Below, piece after piece: positions 1,772-33,662 of a DNA stretch of 64,000 nt; position 1 is the stretch's first letter; each line of letters starts with the position of its first letter. This DNA is from Escherichia phage HildyBeyeler. The notes below the pieces were generated by a model. The model did not search any database. It had not been told where the DNA came from and saw only the letters and a list, made by a program, of their open reading frames with translations. The translations under genes and the position numbers were made by a program. The stretch lies in the sequence record MZ501074, one strand, 5' to 3'.

Positions 1772-1966
1772 TTAGACACTTAAAATACTTCTAATCTCTT
1801 CTATATACTTATCTACTTTTTTAGCATCTATTTTACTTAGTTTTCCTATATCAAAATCAGGATCAGTCAAATATCTTGCCATAAATTTTACTTGTTTAGC
1901 TGAAAGTTGACCCTTATTCCACTTTTTAATTTTACCATAACATACCCAATATTCTTTATTCATCAT
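1772..1966 (-). CDS. hypothetical small protein
   Basis: ORF track; last gene of compact minus-strand array. Confidence 0.4.
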   Translation of the reverse strand: MMNKEYWVCYGKIKKWNKGQLSAKQVKFMARYLTDPDFDIGKLSKIDAKKVDKYIEEIRSILSV

Positions 1967-2348
1967 TTAGTCCCGAAACATAAATCCCAACACGGTTTAA
2001 TTGTTCTTTGGCTTCTTTGAGAATATCTGGAGTGTACTCCCAAATATCATCTTCCACCTGTAAAAGATGGGGCGAACAACCGTCATCGGGCACACGACAT
2101 ATGGCCAAACCACGTGGATGGAACAAAGAGAAATTTAGTGCAACAATTAAACCCATAGCAGACAACTCATTCCAATCCAATTCCCATTCCCTAGCGTAGC
2201 CTGATAGGAAAACACCAATACAGGGATCGTCTATTTGCTGCTCCGGAAAAGTAAAGGAGGCTTGTCTTACCCCCAACCAACGTTGTAGCAGCTTCTCCGC
2301 ACGCTTCACCAAACTAGGATCAATCTGACGCCAATATACTTGTTCCAT
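1956..2348 (-). CDS. hypothetical protein, paralog of 2358-2786
   Basis: ORF track; shares CIG...MGL(I/V)xALN...LF(H/M)P motifs with neighbour. Confidence 0.55.
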   Translation of the reverse strand: MEQVYWRQIDPSLVKRAEKLLQRWLGVRQASFTFPEQQIDDPCIGVFLSGYAREWELDWNELSAMGLIVALNFSLFHPRGLAICRVPDDGCSPHLLQVEDDIWEYTPDILKEAKEQLNRVGIYVSGLNDE

Positions 2349-2357
2349 TGTGCCACC

Positions 2358-2786
2358 TTAGGCAGTTAAACCAGGAATTTGATAACCAAAACGACGAAGT
2401 TTCTGGATACCATCATTTACTTCTTCCGGTGAGTAAGACCAACCGTAATGTTCATCAACTTGAAAGCCAGGAGATTCACTGGTTTTATAGTTAACAACAA
2501 TACGGTGTTTATTGGGCATAAATAGCTTATAGTTTAATGCAAAAACCAACCCCATTTCATCCAGCTCTTTCCAGCCGACAATCTCTTCCAGACCATCCTC
2601 TACCTGCACAACTAGACCAATACACGGGGCCTCATCAATATCATCTTTAAAAGCAAAGGAGATTTCATTATTTTCACACCATATTTTCAAGGAGTTAATA
2701 GTCTCATTATACAGGCTAGCTGGGAGAGTACGCCAGAAGTTAACCAAAATTGGATTAGCTTCTTTAGAGAATACATTATTGAACAT
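2358..2786 (-). CDS. hypothetical protein, paralog of 1956-2348
   Basis: ORF track; tandem duplicate. Confidence 0.55.
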   Translation of the reverse strand: MFNNVFSKEANPILVNFWRTLPASLYNETINSLKIWCENNEISFAFKDDIDEAPCIGLVVQVEDGLEEIVGWKELDEMGLVFALNYKLFMPNKHRIVVNYKTSESPGFQVDEHYGWSYSPEEVNDGIQKLRRFGYQIPGLTA

Positions 2787-2788
2787 AT

Positions 2789-3295
2789 TTACACCTTAAG
2801 TTGTTGTAGGGCTTTACACATTTCAAGATCTGGACTAAATTCTAGCATATAGCTAACAGCCATTAAATCTTGAAGGTTTATTCCAGTTCTACCGTTGACT
2901 ATAACCGTTGGATACTGGTACATCATAGCACCAGCGTCATCCAGCACACACCAATGTTTGAGCTTATGCTTTTCAACGAAGCGAAGAACAGAATTACCCC
3001 TAGATAGCCCACCACCAGTAAAATCCGTTGTACCAAGAAAACGATCAATAAGATCTAATCTGGTCATAATCTGAACGTTCTCCATCTCATTCCTGACAGA
3101 GAACCATGAAGATACCCCAACAATCATTATTGGAGAAGGACGAATAAAGTCCTGAAAAGCCTTGAGAAGCGGCTTAAAAACCCAGTCACTTCCAAAGAAA
3201 ATCTTTTCATCATCAGGTGCATGATGGTGGGAGATGCTCGAATTAAGCACCCCATCGATGTCTAGAAAAATAATTGGAGTATTACTTATTTCCAT
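2789..3295 (-). CDS. HAD-superfamily phosphatase-like protein
   Basis: N-terminal IIFLDIDGVLN (DxDG HAD motif I). Confidence 0.5.
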   Translation of the reverse strand: MEISNTPIIFLDIDGVLNSSISHHHAPDDEKIFFGSDWVFKPLLKAFQDFIRPSPIMIVGVSSWFSVRNEMENVQIMTRLDLIDRFLGTTDFTGGGLSRGNSVLRFVEKHKLKHWCVLDDAGAMMYQYPTVIVNGRTGINLQDLMAVSYMLEFSPDLEMCKALQQLKV

Positions 3296-3464
3296 TTCTG
3301 TTCCTTTCTAAGAACGTATCATACTCAACCGTATCAACATATATGACACCATAGTCATCGGATTTATAGTCCATTTCCCATAGCTCACATCGATAGCACC
3401 AACTACCATCCGCCCATACAAATATATCATCGGGATGTGTATACACAGATTTAACTATGGACAT
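3282..3464 (-). CDS. hypothetical small protein
   Basis: ORF track; overlaps neighbours by a few nt. Confidence 0.4.
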   Translation of the reverse strand: MSIVKSVYTHPDDIFVWADGSWCYRCELWEMDYKSDDYGVIYVDTVEYDTFLERNRNGNK

Positions 3465-4279
3465 ATTTGTTTTCCCGGCATATAAGGTCTACCCTCTAGA
3501 TGAGCTTCTACACGAGCAATAAAACCAGGATCACTGAAAGCATCTACTGCACCTTTACTCCAGTAAGGAATACCACGATCTTCCAGTTGGTACATATCAC
3601 TACGAGTCATACCTTGATAGCCTGGTTTCGACGCTAGGGCACTATCATAGTAGTTAACTACCATAAGTTTCGCAGCAGTCCGATTAAGAACAGGGAATAG
3701 TTCCCAGTAGAAGTTAATTACTTGGTTAGAGCAACCAACTACAACGATCATATCTTGACTGGTAATACCATCAAAAATATTGTACATTTCTGCGTACGCT
3801 GGAGCATGCTCACCAAAAAAGATTACATTAGGTTTAACCCATTTATAATCATCTGGGTCAATAGAGTTATACCCAACATCAATAACCCGTTTATTACTAC
3901 TATTGTAGCTATCAGCTACAACAACCTCTTTTAAATATCCGTGAATGTGCAGAATATCACTATGTGGAACGCCAGCACGCTCAATAAGGTCATCAACGTT
4001 GGTAGTCAAGTTTACTACTTGACCCGGATATTTCTTATACCATTCACCAATACGCAAGTGTGCAAGATTAGGTTCAACAGTTTCTAACTCTTCACGCCGC
4101 TTGTTGTAAAACATATGGGTTTTATGATAAAAGTTACCACGAAAGGCGTGAATATTACATACTTCTTCTAGATCATAATCATCCCACAGTGCTTTACCAC
4201 TAGCAGTATCGGTACGAAAAGCTCGTACACCACTTTCAACGCTCAAACCTGCACCGCTAATAATAATTAATCTACGCAC
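3455..4279 (-). CDS. Sir2-family NAD-dependent protein (sirtuin-like)
   Basis: GAGLSVESG near N-terminus, TTNVD, HG and VVVGCS motifs in sirtuin order. Confidence 0.65.
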   Translation of the reverse strand: MRRLIIISGAGLSVESGVRAFRTDTASGKALWDDYDLEEVCNIHAFRGNFYHKTHMFYNKRREELETVEPNLAHLRIGEWYKKYPGQVVNLTTNVDDLIERAGVPHSDILHIHGYLKEVVVADSYNSSNKRVIDVGYNSIDPDDYKWVKPNVIFFGEHAPAYAEMYNIFDGITSQDMIVVVGCSNQVINFYWELFPVLNRTAAKLMVVNYYDSALASKPGYQGMTRSDMYQLEDRGIPYWSKGAVDAFSDPGFIARVEAHLEGRPYMPGKQICP

Positions 4280-4473
4280 TATACGATTCCTCGCTTAAAT
4301 CCTTCGATAATATTTCGGAGTAAAATTGCTTCCTCCGGGCGTACCTTCTCTTGCTTAATAAGCATATCCAATCCAGCAATACAACTAGTTACACCAGCAT
4401 TATAACCAGAGTTCCATTGCTCAATGAGCATGTTTTCTAGATTACTTTTTAGATTCTGATTCAAGAAGTCCAT
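4279..4473 (-). CDS. hypothetical protein
   Basis: ORF track; AGGAG 7 nt upstream of ATG. Confidence 0.45.
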   Translation of the reverse strand: MDFLNQNLKSNLENMLIEQWNSGYNAGVTSCIAGLDMLIKQEKVRPEEAILLRNIIEGFKRGIV

Positions 4474-4648
4474 AAAGTTTCTCCTCTAGTCCCATAATAC
4501 GATTTTCATAAGAAGCACGCAACTTTTCAATTGCCAGCGCACGCACTGTAACCTCATTAGAATTAATAGCTAACTGGGCCAGATCTTCTGTTTCCATACG
4601 TCCGTTGTAAATTAAGCGATATTTAAGGTGTTTCACATTCTTGGTCAT
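4442..4648 (-). CDS. hypothetical protein
   Basis: ORF track frame; start moved to internal ATG 4648 preceded by GGAG. Confidence 0.4.
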   Translation of the reverse strand: MTKNVKHLKYRLIYNGRMETEDLAQLAINSNEVTVRALAIEKLRASYENRIMGLEEKLYGLLESESKK

Positions 4649-5021
4649 TATTAAACTCCACTGCAACTGTTTCTAGGTCTTCGTCAAAAAAACTAGAGTA
4701 TGTATCTTTAAGATACTGTTTAATACTCCAAGTAATATCTTCGTATCCATCTGGACTACGTTGGTATACTTTTAACACTCTATTATACACAAATTCAAGA
4801 TTACATTTTACTTCATCTCTGTCTTCATCAAACAAGCAATATGGGTTATATGGCGATACATCTAGATTTGTTTCCACCCAATCACCAATAACGGTGGGGT
4901 ATCCAGCACCATCTATATGAGAGTAATCACCTGTGGCAGCAAAGACAGCCTCAGCAATATCATCCACGCCCAGATGGAAATCACCACATGTAGATTCAAC
5001 TATATAGGGCTTTAATTCCAT
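4623..5021 (-). CDS. hypothetical acidic protein
   Basis: ORF track; immediately downstream of nrdD, no radical-SAM CxxxCxxC so not NrdG. Confidence 0.5.
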   Translation of the reverse strand: MELKPYIVESTCGDFHLGVDDIAEAVFAATGDYSHIDGAGYPTVIGDWVETNLDVSPYNPYCLFDEDRDEVKCNLEFVYNRVLKVYQRSPDGYEDITWSIKQYLKDTYSSFFDEDLETVAVEFNNDQECETP

Positions 5022-5120: not shown

Positions 5121-6947
5121 TTACTTAAGATTTAAGTGTTTTACTCTACCAAGAACTTCTTTTTGTTTCCCAGAATTGAAAGGCCTACTGCTAGGGGATC
5201 CCAAGTACCCGCAAACCCTACGTGTAACCTCTATTTCTTCAGACCCACAACTCGGACATACAAACCCACGTTCAGAGGCAACAGATTCACCCATATACCC
5301 ACAGTTGAAGCACTCATCAATTGGTATATTAACACCAATATAATGGCTACATTCTAGCCCCTTATCCACCACATACTCAAGAGCTTTGTGGAACTTTTTC
5401 ATTTGAGGTAGTTCCACAAATGATATATTACCACCATTAGCTATTTTGGTAAAATGAGCCTCGTACTCAAATTTAGTATCTGGGGCTACCTTCTCTCTTA
5501 CGTCCAAATGGTGACTATTAGTGAGATAGCCTTTATCTGTTAGCCAAGAATACTCTGGGAATCTACGTTCTAGTAATTTATTAAAACGATTACATAGAGA
5601 CTCACTAGGAGTAGCGTATAAGCTAAATCCAAGATTAGTCTCATTAGCTTTAACTTCGCAACGATTTTTTAGGTGAGTAAGAACTTCTTCTGTAAATTCA
5701 ATACAATCCCTATGGGTTTGTGGTAGACCAAACATTATTTGGCACATCTCATAGACCCCAATGTATCCAAGAGATACAGAAGATCTACCCTCAAAAATAG
5801 GCCATACATACTCTTCCCCATCTAAACGCACACCAAAACCACCGTGCATATAAAGAATAGGGGCTTGTTTAGCCTTAACTTTCTTCAGTCTGTTTAAGAA
5901 GAAGTCATGCGCTTCAAAAGCCTCATCCACATATTTGTCTAGAATATCCCAGAAATCTTCAAAAACCCCATCTGCCTCAGCAGCAACCATAGGTAGATTA
6001 ATAGACACTACACCTAAATTATTGCGCCCTGCAATTTCTCCGGAGGGGATAGCAGATAAAAAGCTACGACAACCCATAGGTGCTTTAAAATCACCAGTAA
6101 CAGCTACAACTTTCTCATAGCTTAAATAGTCCGGGTACATACGGGTAGCAGAACACTCAAGTGCTAGCTGTTTTATATCGTAGTTAGGATCGCCTGGATT
6201 TTTATTTAACCCTTCTTTAACTGAGAATACTAGTTTAGGGAAGATAGGGGTTGACTCAGCAGCACCTAAACCTTTAATACGGTTTTGGAGGATGGCTTTC
6301 TGAATCATCCTTTCCTCCCACTCCTGTCCTAGCCCAAAGCCAAGCGTAACAAAAGGAGTCTGTCCATTAGAGTTAAATAATGAATTAGTTTCATACTCTA
6401 GGGCTTGGAATGCGTCATAACACTCTTTTTCAGTGAGTTCAGTAGCATATACAGCAGCTTTCCTTTCATCCTTGAGCCAACGTAGACCACGACCCAGGTG
6501 CTTATCATAAGACTTTCTGACATAAGGGGCTAAAACCTCATCGATACGATCAATAGAAGTGCCACCATACTGAGCACCAGATACTTGGGCAATAATCTGA
6601 GCAGTGATTGCACATGCAGTAGTTATGGATTTAGGAGTTTCAATATTTGCATTACCAATTTTAGTACCATTCTTCAGCATGCCACCAAGGTCTACTAAAC
6701 AACAGTTAGTGTATCCCTGTGCCCTGTAATCCATATCATGGATGTGTATTTTACCTAGATTATGGGAGTCTAATAGATGTTTAGGTAATTCTTGTGCTAC
6801 TAAATACTTGTTGATTTCTCCAGCTAATAAGTCTCTTTGGGTATGGAACATCTCACTAGGCTTATTAGCATTATTATGTTGTAAGTCCTTATCAGCAGTT
6901 AGAGTGAGCAGGCCTTTGCAATTCTCAATTAATTCATTCTCTGTCAT
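5121..6947 (-). CDS. nrdD: anaerobic ribonucleoside-triphosphate reductase (class III RNR)
   Basis: 608 aa; C-terminal CxxC..CxxC zinc ribbon followed by RVCGY glycyl-radical motif. Confidence 0.9.
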   Translation of the reverse strand: MTENELIENCKGLLTLTADKDLQHNNANKPSEMFHTQRDLLAGEINKYLVAQELPKHLLDSHNLGKIHIHDMDYRAQGYTNCCLVDLGGMLKNGTKIGNANIETPKSITTACAITAQIIAQVSGAQYGGTSIDRIDEVLAPYVRKSYDKHLGRGLRWLKDERKAAVYATELTEKECYDAFQALEYETNSLFNSNGQTPFVTLGFGLGQEWEERMIQKAILQNRIKGLGAAESTPIFPKLVFSVKEGLNKNPGDPNYDIKQLALECSATRMYPDYLSYEKVVAVTGDFKAPMGCRSFLSAIPSGEIAGRNNLGVVSINLPMVAAEADGVFEDFWDILDKYVDEAFEAHDFFLNRLKKVKAKQAPILYMHGGFGVRLDGEEYVWPIFEGRSSVSLGYIGVYEMCQIMFGLPQTHRDCIEFTEEVLTHLKNRCEVKANETNLGFSLYATPSESLCNRFNKLLERRFPEYSWLTDKGYLTNSHHLDVREKVAPDTKFEYEAHFTKIANGGNISFVELPQMKKFHKALEYVVDKGLECSHYIGVNIPIDECFNCGYMGESVASERGFVCPSCGSEEIEVTRRVCGYLGSPSSRPFNSGKQKEVLGRVKHLNLK

Positions 6948-30749: not shown

Positions 30750-31001
30750 ATGCACGTTTTTGAGTTTCGTAATAAAAGTACCAATAAACGAGTTATTGTT
30801 ATTGGGGAAACATATCGAGCATATGAACAAACTGACGGCTCTGTTATCTTGAATGATGAGAAAGGGGGTTTTAGCTTTTATCCAGAAGAACCTTATGAAG
30901 AGTTTCGAAAACAATTTAACCTAGACTGGAGAAAGCATTTAAACACTGTTGCTTCATCTGTAGTACTGCCAACTACCAGTACTGTACTATCTAATGGCTG
31001 A
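30750..31001 (+). CDS. hypothetical protein
   Basis: ORF track; AAGGAA RBS. Confidence 0.4.
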   Translation: MHVFEFRNKSTNKRVIVIGETYRAYEQTDGSVILNDEKGGFSFYPEEPYEEFRKQFNLDWRKHLNTVASSVVLPTTSTVLSNG

Positions 31002-31158
31002 TAACCTAAAAGTCAAGATCGACAAACAAAAGAAACGTGTAGAAGTAGAGATTGGTGAAGAACGTGTAGCCTTCACCTTTGAATTTCTACAACAAATGGC
31101 AATGACAGTTATGACTGATAAGTCTCCTGTTATTGAAAAAGAAATCCCGTTGAAATAA
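30994..31158 (+). CDS. hypothetical small protein (54 aa)
   Basis: Not in ORF track; ATG overlaps upstream stop (ATGGCTGA); followed by hairpin. Confidence 0.3.
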   Translation: MADNLKVKIDKQKKRVEVEIGEERVAFTFEFLQQMAMTVMTDKSPVIEKEIPLK

Positions 31159-31166
31159 CGGGTTCT

Positions 31167-31253
31167 GCTGGGTTGGCAGAATGGTTGAATGCACCTGATT
31201 TGTAATCAGGAGGAGTAATCCCGTTGCAGGTTCGAATCCTGTGCCCAGCACCA
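31167..31253 (+). tRNA. tRNA with 15-nt variable region, anticodon loop reads TGT (identity uncertain)
   Basis: GCTGGGT/GCCCAGC acceptor, perfect stem CCTGA/TCAGG, loop TTTGTAA, CCA. Confidence 0.5.
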
Positions 31254-31267
31254 ATTTAAGGACTATT

Positions 31268-31435
31268 ATGTTTAAACTGTTAGTAGTTATCTGGTATAGT
31301 CAATCAAATAGAGCGAATACCTCCCACGTTATAGACTTTACTACTAAAAATGAAGCTGAAAAAGCATATGCTAATTTAATAGAACGCAATAAAGAATCTC
31401 GTAGTATAGTTTATGAAGTGACTAAACTTTATTAA
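31268..31435 (+). CDS. hypothetical small protein
   Basis: ATG 31268 after tRNA; AAGGAC RBS. Confidence 0.35.
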   Translation: MFKLLVVIWYSQSNRANTSHVIDFTTKNEAEKAYANLIERNKESRSIVYEVTKLY

Positions 31436-31443
31436 AAATTCAT

Positions 31444-31472
31444 TTGCTTTCCCTCTTATTTATTGTTATAAT
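31444..31472 (+). promoter_or_regulatory. sigma70-type promoter
   Basis: TTGCTT-17-TATAAT. Confidence 0.6.
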
Positions 31473-31502
31473 ATTTATATAAATTAATGAGAGGGAAACC
31501 AA

Positions 31503-31793
31503 ATGAAACGTTATCTTTCTGTTATGTTCCAAACCGGCGGCCAAAGATACACCTATGAATTTCCACCTTCCTGGAAAATCAGGGAAGGTGATCAAATAGT
31601 TGTGTTGACACCGCGTGAAGAATATAAAGTAGTGACGGTTAAACAAGTATTTCCAAAAGATCATGAACCAGCTATAGGCATCCGATATAAGATGATTCAT
31701 GGCGTGGTTCGTCAAGTACCACGAACTGAGGTAGAAGTAGATAATACTGGAGAAACTAAATTCCATTATACTTCTTACTTAGACAGTGTGTGA
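31503..31793 (+). CDS. hypothetical protein
   Basis: ORF track; GAGAGGGAAA RBS. Confidence 0.45.
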   Translation: MKRYLSVMFQTGGQRYTYEFPPSWKIREGDQIVVLTPREEYKVVTVKQVFPKDHEPAIGIRYKMIHGVVRQVPRTEVEVDNTGETKFHYTSYLDSV

Positions 31794-31807
31794 TGTAAAT
31801 ATTTTAA

Positions 31808-31884
31808 TGCTTCGGTAGCTTAGCGATCTAAAGCACTCGGCTGATAACCGAGAGATCAGGGGTTTAAATCCCTCCCGGAGTACC
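31808..31884 (+). tRNA. tRNA-Ile (anticodon GAT)
   Basis: D-stem GCTT/AAGC, perfect stem CTCGG/CCGAG, loop CTGATAA, CCA. Confidence 0.65.
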
Positions 31885-31981
31885 AAATCTAGGAATTAAG
31901 ACTATGCGTCCAGGAAAGTTTAAAAAAGCTAGTTGGTCTAAAGAGTACAAAGAATACTTACTTAGCCTAGTAAAACGTAAT

Positions 31982-32057
31982 AGTTAGTTGGCAGAGTGGT
32001 TATGCGCCTCCTTCATACGGAGCGACTACAGTGGTTCAAATCCACTACTAACTACCA
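31982..32057 (+). tRNA. tRNA with CAT anticodon (Met or Ile2)
   Basis: Perfect AGTTAGT/ACTAACT acceptor, loop TTCATAC, T-arm AGTGG-TTCAAAT-CCACT, CCA. Confidence 0.6.
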
Positions 32058-32070
32058 AACAGGAGATCTA

Positions 32071-32439
32071 ATGAAAGCGTATCAAAATCTTAAATCTGGC
32101 GTAATTAATATTGTTCATAATAATCAGATTATTCAACTGTACTCTAAAGATGGTGAACTTAAACAAAAGGTTCTAGTTGAAGATCTAGATGGTATCACAC
32201 CTCATTTTGACCCAGAATCCTTTCGTGAAGTCAAAGTGGAAGTCGCCCCTCAAATTGAAGGTGGTCAACACCTAAATGTCAATGTGTTAAGTCGTGATCA
32301 GCTTTTGGATGCGCAGAAACATCCTGAAAAATACCCTCAATTAACTATCCGTGTTTCAGGGTACGCTGTGCGTTTTAACGCACTGACGCGTGAACAGCAG
32401 AACGACGTTATTAGTCGTACATTTACTCAGGCGATGTAA
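32071..32439 (+). CDS. grcA: autonomous glycyl-radical cofactor (GrcA/YfiD-like)
   Basis: C-terminus [11 protein letters not shown]...[20 protein letters not shown] matches the PFL/YfiD glycyl-radical signature; ATG 32071 after AGGAG. Confidence 0.8.
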
Positions 32440-32520
32440 TGGGGCTTGGATACGGTTTCTACGAACTACGTAAGGTAGTCGAGCAAACTCCATTTATCTC
32501 CCAAGTTTTAGGAGAAATGT

Positions 32521-32835
32521 GTGGATCGAGCATTAAGACGTCATCACCGGCAACGTGTAAAGAACAACCGCAAGAAGTATTGGACAGTCTTCCCACATGA
32601 AGAAAGCCCTAAACGGTTAGGTATTATCACTACTACTCCTTGTATCTGTTCTTGTTGGATGTGCGGGAACCCTCGCAAACACTTTAAGAATAGTAAAGCA
32701 GGGATGAAAACCTCGGAGATTAGGAAAATGGAAGCAATGATTACGGATATTTCAAATGATGAATTTGATGGCTTCGTAGGATTCGGGGAAGATATTAGCT
32801 CGGACTGTTTCGAAGATGAGCTCCCAGGTCTATGA
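32521..32835 (+). CDS. hypothetical protein
   Basis: ORF track (GTG start after AGGAG). Confidence 0.4.
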   Translation: MDRALRRHHRQRVKNNRKKYWTVFPHEESPKRLGIITTTPCICSCWMCGNPRKHFKNSKAGMKTSEIRKMEAMITDISNDEFDGFVGFGEDISSDCFEDELPGL

Positions 32836-32843
32836 TTAATAAC

Positions 32844-32881
32844 AAACCCCAGCTATTGAATAAGTAGTCTGGGGTTTTTCT
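32844..32881 (+). terminator. rho-independent terminator
   Basis: AAACCCCAG...CTGGGGTTT stem followed by TTCTG. Confidence 0.6.
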
Positions 32882-32956
32882 GTATACAGGTAGATAATTT
32901 ATGTATAATAAAATTCATCCACATTAGGTTAATTCAAAAGACTTAATGGAGGTAAT

Positions 32957-33304
32957 ATGAGCCGTACTTATCGTAGACAAACTGGTGATCAGTGGTGGAA
33001 GTCTAAAGCTAATTACACCCAGGGATATACTTTCCTCAAAGCAAGTGACTACTACATTCGTGTTACTTATGCTAAATCCTGGGATGAGGTAGAACAGGAA
33101 ATGGAAGAAGCAACCATTCGTAATGAGAAAAAGGATGGTTATAGCTGGAATTCTGTTAGTAAGAATGTTAAGTGGCATTCTAATAAAATGGTTCGTCAAG
33201 GAAATCGTCAAGAACTCCACCGCGTGATGAAAGACCCAGAAAATTACGACTATAATCGCGATCATGACATGCGTAAGCGTGGGTTACGGTGGTGCTATGA
33301 CTAA
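32957..33304 (+). CDS. hypothetical protein
   Basis: ORF track; GGAGG RBS. Confidence 0.45.
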   Translation: MSRTYRRQTGDQWWKSKANYTQGYTFLKASDYYIRVTYAKSWDEVEQEMEEATIRNEKKDGYSWNSVSKNVKWHSNKMVRQGNRQELHRVMKDPENYDYNRDHDMRKRGLRWCYD

Positions 33305-33321
33305 ATTCTGAAATAATTCAT

Positions 33322-33350
33322 TTGCTAAACCTCTCTTTTCTTGCTATAAT
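33322..33350 (+). promoter_or_regulatory. sigma70-type promoter
   Basis: TTGCTA-17-TATAAT. Confidence 0.6.
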
Positions 33351-33380
33351 ATATTTATAAATTGATGAGAGAGGTTTGAA

Positions 33381-33662
33381 ATGAAAACTCGTCTAGACTG
33401 TGCTGTTCATGTTCTTGAACATGATGTTGTGGGAACCTGTATGTCTTATCACGAAGCAGGTCGTTTAATTAAAGAACGTGTGGCAGATGTATGTGGGTTG
33501 AAGATTACTGCTGAGGAAGCTGATGATCTTCTAGACCAGGCACTGGGGAAAACAGAAATATTCCTCTGCGATTCCTGCTCCTGGTGGTGTGAAGCTCACG
33601 AACATTCCTTCAACGATTATGATGTATGCCGTGACTGTAATGAGGGGGACCATGATGAATAA
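33381..33662 (+). CDS. hypothetical Cys-rich protein
   Basis: ORF track; C-terminal CDSCSWWC...CRDC cluster. Confidence 0.45.
   Translation: MKTRLDCAVHVLEHDVVGTCMSYHEAGRLIKERVADVCGLKITAEEADDLLDQALGKTEIFLCDSCSWWCEAHEHSFNDYDVCRDCNEGDHDE

What the first reader, a model, noticed from the sequence alone, without database searches (positions are those of the whole stretch)
32071..32439. Phage-encoded GrcA/YfiD-like glycyl-radical spare-part protein
The C-terminal 60 residues match the pyruvate formate-lyase glycyl-radical domain (QHLNVNVL...[20 protein letters not shown]). Together with nrdD this gives the phage two glycyl-radical proteins. The product could repair host PFL or other oxygen-damaged glycyl-radical enzymes under microaerobic infection.
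Basis: partly seen in the sequence, partly recalled or inferred. Interest (0 to 1): 0.55.

Follow-up and report, generated by a model that had tools for sequence, protein, structure and literature searches.

The report
T5-type phage GrcA spare-part gene
This is the T5-family copy (T5.056 orthologue) of a known phage and bacterial "spare-part" protein that carries a replacement glycyl-radical loop for oxygen-damaged pyruvate formate-lyase; it is a real, conserved gene, but it is already known and not surprising.

Summary
Window 32071..32439 (+) is an intact 122-aa gene whose C-terminal 62 residues are 77-81% identical to the glycyl-radical ends of E. coli GrcA, PflB and TdcE. The RVSGYAV motif is exact, and Gly97 aligns with GrcA G102 and PflB G734.

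The window is a T5-like phage (Demerecviridae), about 97% identical to T5 around this gene. The gene is the orthologue of T5.056 and lies in an early transcription unit interleaved with tRNA genes. About 433 T5-like phage records carry a copy at 80% identity or more, and 1582 phage records carry a homologue. It is under strong purifying selection (dN/dS 0.07).

It is 52% identical over its full length to T4-type vs.6, which is the only GrcA homologue in T4. I therefore equate vs.6 with Y06I, the phage spare part validated in 2001.

The best reading is that host PflA installs a radical on Gly97 and the protein then restores host PFL activity during microaerobic infection. The phage's own nrdD is present at 5121..6947 (-), but its radical domain is unrelated beyond RVxGY, so repair of NrdD is unlikely.

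Novelty: already known. Interest: low. The only slightly unusual features are a strongly diverged N-terminal half and a TdcE-like tail.

The parts
32071..32439 (+). GrcA/YfiD-like autonomous glycyl-radical cofactor gene (122 aa plus stop); orthologue of T5.056
   Evidence: ORF listing and sequence. Pfam, NCBIfam and PHROG matches. PDB matches to YfiD and PFL. About 97% DNA identity to the T5 region that holds T5.056. dN/dS 0.069 across 29 distinct alleles.
32061..32065 (+). Shine-Dalgarno AGGAG, 5 nt upstream of the ATG
   Evidence: Read directly from the sequence.
32071..32253 (+). N-terminal half (residues 1-61), a lineage-specific, strongly diverged version of the GrcA N-terminal region
   Evidence: BLASTP finds no similarity to T4-type vs.6. 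The only match to the E. coli GrcA N-terminus is a 10-residue stretch at residues 51-60. hhalign links it to other phage GrcA-like N-termini (probability 94%, E = 1e-7), and those link to bacterial GrcA N-termini (probability 99.7%). dN/dS is 0.11. AF2 predicts beta strands at pLDDT 65-79.
32254..32436 (+). Glycyl-radical domain (residues 62-122), equivalent to PflB 698-759 and GrcA 66-127
   Evidence: Alignments. dN/dS 0.017. The AF2 hairpin E92-95/E98-101 carries the Gly at its tip, and the best Foldseek hits are 6owr and PFL.
32359..32361 (+). Codon of Gly97, the predicted radical site within RVSGYAV (aligned with GrcA G102 and PflB G734)
   Evidence: Invariant column in 13- and 71-sequence alignments. 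Codon position read.
31444..31472 (+). Promoter TTGCTT-17-TATAAT, equivalent to annotated T5 promoter P11; likely start of the transcription unit
   Evidence: T5 record annotation, window/T5 alignment, sequence. The consensus scan missed it because the -35 hexamer matches only 3 of 6 positions.
31503..31793 (+). First ORF of the unit (96 aa, T5.058-like, no family match)
31809..31885 (+). tRNA-Ile(GAU) within the same unit
   Evidence: ARAGORN; T5 annotation.
31982..32057 (+). tRNA-Met(CAU), ending 13 nt upstream of the GrcA-like start codon
   Evidence: ARAGORN; T5 annotation.
32521..32835 (+). Downstream co-transcribed ORF (104 aa, Cys-rich, T5.055-like, function unknown)
   Evidence: Third-codon-position variation in 30 loci supports this frame. 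T5 annotation. No Pfam hit.
32844..32882 (+). Rho-independent terminator that closes the unit
   Evidence: RNA fold -19 kcal/mol, z = -6.0. Annotated as a terminator at the equivalent T5 position.
5121..6947 (-). Context only: phage nrdD (class III ribonucleotide reductase), the second glycyl-radical protein in the window; not a likely target of the spare part
   Evidence: Pfam NRDD 5.9e-158 plus Gly_radical. tblastn with the GrcA-like protein finds no hit inside nrdD.

Best explanation

Proposed mechanism:
1. The gene is transcribed early from a P11-type promoter, together with tRNA genes.
2. The 122-aa protein binds host PFL whose own radical domain has been cut at Gly734 by oxygen, or is otherwise inactive.
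3. The host activase PflA (PFL-AE) recognises the RVSGYAV loop and abstracts a hydrogen from Gly97.
4. The loop then sits in the PFL active site and passes the radical to Cys419, which restores pyruvate cleavage to acetyl-CoA and formate.

Shown here: gene integrity, homology, the conserved radical motif, selection, the transcription-unit anatomy, and the absence of a phage activase in this window. Inferred: activation by host PflA, PFL as the target, and the physiological benefit.
For: - The C-terminal 62 residues are 48/62 identical to E. coli GrcA, 49/62 to PflB and 50/62 to TdcE. RVSGYAV is exact and is invariant in 71 homologues.
- The best solved-structure relatives are YfiD (6owr, 2e-30) and E. 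coli PFL.
- The AF2 model places Gly97 at the tip of a beta hairpin, as in glycyl-radical domains.
- The protein matches phrog_1209 over its full length and is 52% identical over 100% of its length to T4-type vs.6, with one copy per T4 genome.
- T4 Y06I and E. coli YfiD were shown to be activated by PFL-AE and to restore cleaved PFL (PMC8683613). GrcA also rescues a PflB G734A variant in vivo (PMC12338860).
- Purifying selection: dN/dS is 0.069 overall, 0.017 in the radical domain and 0.11 in the N-terminal half. There are no stops or frameshifts in 31 genes.
- About 433 T5-like records carry a copy at 80% identity or more, compared with about 460 T5-like records that have nrdD.
- No PflA/NrdG-like activase is present in the window: tblastn E > 0.5, and the only ORF of 80 aa or more with a CxxxCxxC motif is the 104-aa T5.055-like ORF, which is too small to be an activase. 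PflA finds no T5-sized phage record among the rows shown. This fits dependence on the host activase.
Against: - No experiment exists for any T5-family protein.
- The N-terminal half, which in E. coli YfiD is needed for binding cleaved PFL (PMC8683613), has diverged beyond pairwise detection from both E. coli GrcA and T4-type vs.6.
- The NCBIfam GrcA equivalog model aligns only residues 50-122 and scores 121.5 bits against a cutoff of 170. T4-type vs.6 also falls below that cutoff, at 153.3 bits.
- The 25 residues after the Gly are closer to TdcE (23/25) than to PflB (20/25), counted by eye from the sequences printed. PflB may therefore not be the only target.
- The rest of the phage genome outside this 64-kb window was not scanned for an activase.
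Confidence: 0.75

Rival explanations
1. It is still a spare part, but its main role is to keep host PFL making formate, the reductant used by formate-type class III ribonucleotide reductases. In this reading the phage GrcA feeds the phage NrdD and couples the phage's two glycyl-radical proteins metabolically rather than physically.
For: nrdD is present in the same genome and is about 50% identical to T4-type NrdD. Formate is the reductant in most class III RNRs characterised to date, and T4 NrdD was suggested to have a formate-binding site (PMC4493059). The phage lineages seen to carry GrcA-like genes, T5-like and T4-like, also carry nrdD.
Against: The co-occurrence is confounded by phylogeny, because it rests on a few large lineages, and it was not tested genome by genome. 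Many nrdD-bearing phages appear to lack the gene: 328 Vibrio phage records have nrdD, while Vibrio is not among the ten commonest genera with a GrcA hit. There are no flux or dNTP data. This reading is a sub-case of the best explanation, not an exclusive alternative.
Confidence: 0.2
2. It is a spare part aimed at TdcE (2-ketobutyrate/pyruvate formate-lyase) or at both PflB and TdcE, rather than at PflB alone.
For: The segment after the radical Gly (residues 98-122) is 23/25 identical to E. coli TdcE, against 20/25 to PflB and 18/25 to GrcA (counted by eye from the sequences printed). Overall identity to TdcE is 50/62. RAST-type annotations name it '2-ketobutyrate formate-lyase'.
Against: The segment before the Gly is closer to GrcA (29/36) and PflB (28/36) than to TdcE (26/36), by the same count. 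The differences are a handful of residues and carry little phylogenetic signal. TdcE is a minor, conditionally expressed enzyme. No spare part has been shown for TdcE.
Confidence: 0.1
3. It is a spare part or partner for the phage's own NrdD, as the first reader suggested testing.
For: Both are glycyl-radical proteins encoded by the same phage. An early T4-like genome paper guessed a role for vs.6 in nucleotide metabolism from the shared Pfam domain (PMC1524935).
Against: The NrdD C-terminus (…CPSCGSEEIEVTRRVCGYLGSPSSRPFNSGKQKEV…) shares only RVxGY with this protein. tblastn with the GrcA-like protein gives no hit in nrdD even at E = 10. By contrast it is 79% identical to the PFL tail, and a spare part has to fit the barrel it repairs.
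Confidence: 0.03
4. It is a decoy. It binds host PflA or PFL without productive catalysis and so shuts down or redirects host fermentation.
For: The N-terminal half differs strongly from the host's GrcA. Sequence alone cannot exclude this reading.
Against: The homologous T4 protein restores PFL activity in vitro. The residues needed for catalysis, and not only for binding, are under very strong purifying selection (dN/dS 0.017 in the C-terminal half), and the tail after the Gly is kept PFL/TdcE-like.
Confidence: 0.04
5. It is a non-functional remnant of a captured 3' end of a host pflB or tdcE gene.
For: DNA-level similarity of about 74% to E. coli pflB and tdcE over the 3' half. Many records label it 'pyruvate formate-lyase'.
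Against: It has its own RBS and start codon. It is intact in 31 of 31 T5-like loci, with dN/dS 0.07. It has a conserved N-terminal extension homologous to other phage GrcA-like proteins. Homologues occur in 1582 phage records across several families.
Confidence: 0.01

Closest known systems
Bacteriophage T5 ORF T5.056 ('putative acetyltransferase-related protein', IPR001150 match), NC_005859
   Same: Same gene, with the same length (369 nt). The protein is 99% identical (locus L004, whose contig has T5's length of 121,750 bp). The position is the same, directly after tRNA-Met and before T5.055. The promoter P11 and terminator are the same, and the region is about 97% identical at the DNA level.
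   Different: Only a few nucleotide differences. The T5 record gives it no functional name beyond the domain match.
Bacteriophage T4 Y06I (equated here with gene vs.6), autonomous glycyl-radical cofactor
   Same: Stand-alone protein of about 120 aa in the same PHROG. T4-type vs.6 is 52% identical over the full length and 49/62 identical in the radical domain, with the RVSGYAV motif. Y06I is biochemically validated as a PFL spare part activated by PFL-AE.
   Different: The N-terminal 60 residues show no pairwise similarity. The T4-type radical domain is 60/62 identical to E. coli GrcA, whereas the T5-type domain is equidistant from GrcA, PflB and TdcE. The genomic context also differs: the vs-regB region in T4-type phages against the tRNA region here. 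The identification of Y06I with vs.6 rests on T4 having a single homologue and on my own knowledge.
E. coli GrcA (YfiD), PDB 6owr, NCBIfam TIGR04365
   Same: Size, architecture, and the radical domain (48/62 identical; E = 2e-30). Gly97 corresponds to G102. 6owr is the best structural match.
   Different: The score is below the equivalog cutoff (121.5 against 170 bits) and the alignment covers only residues 50-122. The N-terminal half is related only through intermediate sequences. AF2 predicts beta structure there, whereas the YfiD N-terminal half is disordered by NMR. It is phage-encoded.
C-terminal glycyl-radical domains of E. coli PflB (residues 698-759) and TdcE
   Same: 79-81% identity and the same fold element. 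DNA identity is about 74%.
   Different: It lacks the roughly 700-residue catalytic barrel with Cys418/Cys419. It is therefore not a formate-lyase, despite many database names.

Membership tests
GrcA/YfiD autonomous glycyl-radical cofactor (spare-part protein) | Small stand-alone protein of about 120-130 aa, not the end of a larger enzyme gene | tested here: met
   122 aa with its own RBS, ATG and stop. It is flanked by tRNA-Met upstream and a separate ORF downstream.
GrcA/YfiD autonomous glycyl-radical cofactor (spare-part protein) | C-terminal glycyl-radical domain with the RVSGYAV fingerprint, and the Gly aligned to GrcA G102 and PflB G734 | tested here: met
   Pfam PF01228 at 3.8e-18. HMMER alignments to 6owr and 1h16. 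The motif columns are invariant.
GrcA/YfiD autonomous glycyl-radical cofactor (spare-part protein) | Close sequence mimicry of the PFL C-terminus (about residues 698-759), so that it can substitute for the cleaved piece | tested here: met
   49/62 identical to E. coli PflB and 50/62 to TdcE.
GrcA/YfiD autonomous glycyl-radical cofactor (spare-part protein) | N-terminal region of about 60 residues homologous to that of GrcA (implicated in binding cleaved PFL) | tested here: inconclusive
   BLASTP finds no similarity to T4-type vs.6, and only a 10-residue match (residues 51-60) to E. coli GrcA. A direct hhalign to bacterial N-termini covers only 12 columns. There is a transitive link: T5-type to other phage-type N-termini at probability 94% (E = 1e-7), and those to bacterial N-termini at probability 99.7%.
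GrcA/YfiD autonomous glycyl-radical cofactor (spare-part protein) | Score above the NCBIfam TIGR04365 equivalog cutoff (170 bits) | tested here: not met
   121.5 bits. The cutoff is not functionally decisive, because T4-type vs.6 scores 153.3 and other phage homologues score 135-137, while E. coli GrcA scores 234.
GrcA/YfiD autonomous glycyl-radical cofactor (spare-part protein) | Glycyl radical installed by the PFL activating enzyme (PflA) | not testable with these tools
   Only the recognition motif RVSGYAV can be checked, and it is identical. No phage activase was found in the window.
GrcA/YfiD autonomous glycyl-radical cofactor (spare-part protein) | Restores activity to O2-cleaved or radical-less PFL | not testable with these tools
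   Shown for E. coli YfiD and T4 Y06I only (PMC8683613; PMC12338860).
PHROG 1209 (phage GrcA-like proteins) | Full-length match to the family profile | tested here: met
   E = 6.9e-48, residues 1-122 against profile positions 1-121 of 121.
Pyruvate / 2-ketobutyrate formate-lyase (the name used in many phage records) | Catalytic barrel of about 750 aa with the Cys418/Cys419 pair | tested here: not met
   Only the last roughly 63 positions of TIGR01255 (682-744 of 744) are matched, at 86 bits against a cutoff of 994. The protein is 122 aa.
Class III ribonucleotide reductase radical domain (a spare part for NrdD) | Sequence mimicry of the NrdD C-terminus | tested here: not met
   tblastn finds no hit to the window's nrdD at E <= 10. 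Only RVxGY is shared.

The most novel reading that the evidence does not exclude
The T5-family protein may be more than a copy of host GrcA. It could be a retuned spare part: its diverged, possibly folded N-terminal beta region and TdcE-like tail might let it load onto host PflB and TdcE regardless of oxygen damage. That would keep formate flowing to the phage's formate-dependent NrdD after host shut-off, so that the phage's two glycyl-radical proteins form one anaerobic dNTP-supply module that relies entirely on host activases.
Probability: 0.15. Interest if true: 0.45.

Novelty: already known. Interest (0 to 1): 0.15.

Why it matters
The finding has modest value as an annotation clean-up. 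Hundreds of T5-like genomes label this gene 'pyruvate formate-lyase', '2-ketobutyrate formate-lyase', 'acetyltransferase-related' or even 'ribonucleotide reductase subunit', when it is a GrcA-type spare part.

Biologically it is one more case of a virulent enterobacterial phage carrying an auxiliary metabolic gene for low-oxygen infection, alongside nrdD. The T5-family version has never been tested experimentally. Its divergent N-terminal half could help define what that region of GrcA actually recognises on damaged PFL. None of this would surprise a specialist.

Tried and rejected
- **Longer GTG-start ORF (31996..32439, 147 aa).** Rejected because it overlaps tRNA-Met, and the T5 annotation and the RBS support the ATG at 32071.
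- **Phage-encoded activase.** Pfam on the ORFs next to nrdD, tblastn with E. coli PflA against the window, and a CxxxCxxC regex over all ORFs of 80 aa or more found nothing. The one regex hit is a small Cys-rich ORF (32521..32835) with no Pfam match. PflA against all phage records finds T4-type NrdG proteins but no T5-sized genome among the rows shown.
- **NrdD as the target.** Rejected on sequence.
- **Promoter/terminator consensus scan around the gene.** It gave nothing useful. The real signals were recovered from the curated T5 record and by folding.
- **Direct N-terminal homology.** BLASTP to T4-type vs.6 and to E. coli GrcA failed. Only profile-profile comparison through intermediates worked.
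- **Literature.** A search for T5-like phage plus formate-lyase returned no paper. The Kammel & Sawers 2022 paper (PMC9112899) is not held, so I used PMC12338860 instead.
- **Genome-level co-occurrence of grcA and nrdD.** It could not be computed, because the tools return counts and sampled rows, not full record lists.

Full report
**1. Observation**

The window carries an intact ORF at exactly the stated coordinates.
- The ATG is at 32071. It is preceded by AGGAG at 32061-32065.
- The TAA stop is at 32437-32439, and the product is 122 aa.
- A longer GTG-initiated reading frame from 31996 overlaps tRNA-Met at 31982..32057, so it is not the real start.

The product matches known glycyl-radical proteins far beyond chance.
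- Pfam Gly_radical: E = 3.8e-18, residues 62-103.
- PDB, by sequence: E. coli YfiD/GrcA (6owr) at E = 2e-30 and E. coli pyruvate formate-lyase at E = 4e-27. RVSGYAV is conserved exactly.
- In a 13-sequence alignment that includes E. coli GrcA and the PflB C-terminus, 42 columns are invariant. Gly97 aligns with GrcA G102 and PflB G734.
- Ungapped identity over the last 62 residues is 48/62 to GrcA, 49/62 to PflB, 50/62 to TdcE and 49/62 to T4-type vs.6.

It does not fail.

**2. Where the gene sits**

The window is a T5-like phage (Demerecviridae).
- It carries 21 tRNA genes between 20.8 and 32.1 kb.
- It also carries nrdA, nrdB, PhoH, Sir2 and nrdD.
- Megablast of 31000-33500 finds 450 phage records, nearly all Salmonella or Escherichia T5-like phages.
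- The region 31400-32960 aligns to phage T5 (NC_005859) at about 97% identity.

In the curated T5 record the gene is T5.056, 'putative acetyltransferase-related protein, match to IPR001150'. That record also gives the anatomy of the transcription unit, in this order:
1. Promoter P11. In the window this is TTGCTT-17-TATAAT at 31444-31472.
2. T5.058 (window 31503..31793).
3. tRNA-Ile.
4. The 27-codon T5.057.
5. tRNA-Met.
6. T5.056.
7. T5.055 (window 32521..32835).
8. A rho-independent terminator. In the window this is 32844-32882, with a fold energy of -19 kcal/mol and z = -6.0.

The generic promoter and terminator scan missed both signals. The gene is therefore part of a small mixed tRNA/protein operon in the tRNA gene region of the phage.

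**3. Is it a working gene?**

Thirty further T5-like loci from IMG/VR contain the gene. All are 122 codons with no stops.
- Across 29 distinct DNA alleles, pooled pairwise dN/dS is 0.069.
- It is 0.017 in the radical domain and 0.11 in the N-terminal half.
- tblastn finds homologues in 1582 of 50,697 phage records. Of these, 433 are at 80% identity or more (the T5-like set).
- The remainder include T4-like phages, jumbo Klebsiella, Escherichia, Salmonella and Yersinia phages, and Aeromonas phages.
- The window's NrdD finds about 460 T5-like records (49 at 95% identity or more, plus 411 at 60-80%).

By this rough count the GrcA-like gene is close to a core gene of nrdD-bearing T5-like phages. 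A decaying fragment of a captured pflB is excluded.

**4. What it is**

The protein matches phrog_1209 over its full length (E = 6.9e-48). It is 52% identical over 100% of its length to T4-type vs.6. In the PP01 record that gene is annotated as 'vs.6, autonomous glycyl radical cofactor GrcA'.

T4 has a single homologue per genome. It must therefore be Y06I, the 14-kDa T4 protein studied by Knappe's group. They showed that Y06I and E. coli YfiD receive a glycyl radical from PFL-AE and restore activity to O2-cleaved PFL (Wagner et al. 2001, summarised in PMC8683613).

The AF2 model (mean pLDDT 71) gives the expected helix, then a hairpin with the Gly at its tip, then a helix, over residues 75-117. 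Its best Foldseek hits are the YfiD NMR structure and E. coli PFL.

**5. What is different from the textbook GrcA**

The N-terminal half is the unusual part.
- The NCBIfam GrcA equivalog model aligns only residues 50-122. It scores 121.5 bits against a cutoff of 170.
- That cutoff is not functionally decisive. T4-type vs.6 also misses it at 153.3 bits, while E. coli GrcA scores 234.
- BLASTP of residues 1-60 finds nothing in T4-type vs.6. In E. coli GrcA it finds only the 10-residue 'REVxVEVxP' stretch.
- Profile-profile comparison links the T5-type N-terminus to other phage or metagenomic GrcA-like N-termini (probability 94%, E = 1e-7, 54 columns). Those link to bacterial GrcA N-termini (probability 99.7%, E = 2e-26).
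- I therefore read the N-terminal half as a strongly diverged homologue, not a new domain.

AF2 predicts a beta meander for residues 2-38 at pLDDT 65-79. In contrast, the YfiD N-terminal half is disordered in solution and is implicated in binding cleaved PFL. I would not lean on a model of this confidence.

The second small oddity is the tail. The 25 residues after the Gly are 23/25 identical to TdcE, 20/25 to PflB and 18/25 to GrcA. The 36 residues before the Gly are closer to GrcA and PflB. These counts were made by eye from the sequences printed. This is too little signal to assign a target.

**6. Mechanism**

The best-supported reading is the established spare-part mechanism. Host PflA installs the radical on Gly97. 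The domain then replaces the damaged or inactive radical loop of host PFL and hands the radical to Cys419.
- No PflA- or NrdG-like activase is detectable in the window. PflA tblastn gives E > 0.5, and there is no CxxxCxxC motif in any ORF of 80 aa or more apart from a 104-aa Cys-rich ORF. The ORFs beside nrdD have no radical-SAM domain.
- PflA as a query against all phage records recovers T4-type NrdG proteins. No T5-sized genome appears among the sampled rows.
- Dependence on host activases is therefore likely, but the part of the phage genome outside the window was not scanned.
- A phage copy makes sense if host transcription is shut off after infection, so that host grcA cannot be induced. 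This is inference.

**7. The NrdD idea**

nrdD is indeed present at 5121..6947 (-) and has its own Gly_radical domain. Its C-terminus shares only RVxGY with the small protein, and tblastn finds no similarity. A physical spare-part role for NrdD is therefore unlikely.

A metabolic link is possible. Formate, the product of PFL, is the reductant in most class III RNRs characterised to date, and a formate-binding site was suggested for T4 NrdD (PMC4493059). The window's NrdD is about 50% identical to T4-type NrdD. Keeping PFL alive could thus feed the phage NrdD. I rate this as a plausible sub-hypothesis. It is untested here, and the observed co-occurrence is confounded by phylogeny.

**8. Novelty**

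This is already known.
- The gene is the orthologue of T5.056.
- Several T5-like records already call it 'autonomous glycyl radical cofactor', including slur09, JLBYU40, SP33, PECP14 and faergetype.
- The T4 homologue has been biochemically validated.
- Conservation of vs.6 in T4-like phages was noted in 2006 (PMC1524935).
- According to PMC8683613, only YfiD and Y06I have been validated, so the T5-family protein remains untested.
- The practical outcome is an annotation correction, because many records misname the gene as a formate-lyase, an acetyltransferase or an RNR subunit.

Interest is low.

Noticed in passing
window 32439..32600 (+) versus 32521..32835 (+): The 53-aa ORF whose ATG overlaps the GrcA stop codon (ATGTAATG) is annotated as a CDS in Salmonella phage Tennessee. 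Across 30 T5-like loci, variation in the overlap region falls on the third codon position of the other frame (16 of 25 positions, against 3 and 2). This supports the 104-aa Cys-rich ORF (CICSCWMCGNPRK motif; T5.055 in the curated T5 record). That ORF has no Pfam match and its function is unknown.
   Followed up: partly
protein clusters P0113, P0102, P0097, P0119: These metagenome or Logan clusters have an enterobacterial GrcA N-terminus joined to a PflB-type tail (…SLTKEQQQDVITRTFTQSM). One of them stands for 900 member sequences. They are either assembly chimeras between grcA and pflB or real gene conversion between the two host genes.
   Followed up: no
L002 3001-3360 (Escherichia phage PP01 vs.6): The last 62 residues of T4-type vs.6 are 60/62 identical to E. 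coli GrcA, while its N-terminal half is quite different. This suggests a recent exchange of the radical domain with the host gene. The T5-type domain shows no such near-identity to any host gene.
   Followed up: partly
window 5121..6947 (-): The window's NrdD is 95% or more identical in only 49 phage records and 60-80% identical in 411. T5-like phages therefore seem to carry two well-separated nrdD lineages. No nrdG-like activase lies next to it, and the neighbouring ORFs at 4623..5021 and 4442..4666 have no family match.
   Followed up: partly
window 1956..4279 (-): A Sir2-family ORF (3455..4279), a HAD_SAK_2 'Swiss Army Knife RNA repair' HAD-domain ORF (2789..3295), and two tandem DUF7415 ORFs (1956..2348, 2358..2786) sit just beyond nrdD.
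   Followed up: no
phage records OR848450.1 (Listeria phage LM 4-14-1, 6.3 kb) and MG065692.1 (Campylobacter phage C13, 99.9 kb): These records carry copies of this gene that are 94-97% identical at the protein level. That is implausible for phages of those hosts. They are probably T5-like contaminants or mislabelled records.
   Followed up: no
window 30994..31158 (+) and 32957..33304 (+): Small neighbouring ORFs match phage-only Pfam families of unknown function: DUF7293 at 7.8e-39 and DUF7295 at 3.8e-54.
   Followed up: no
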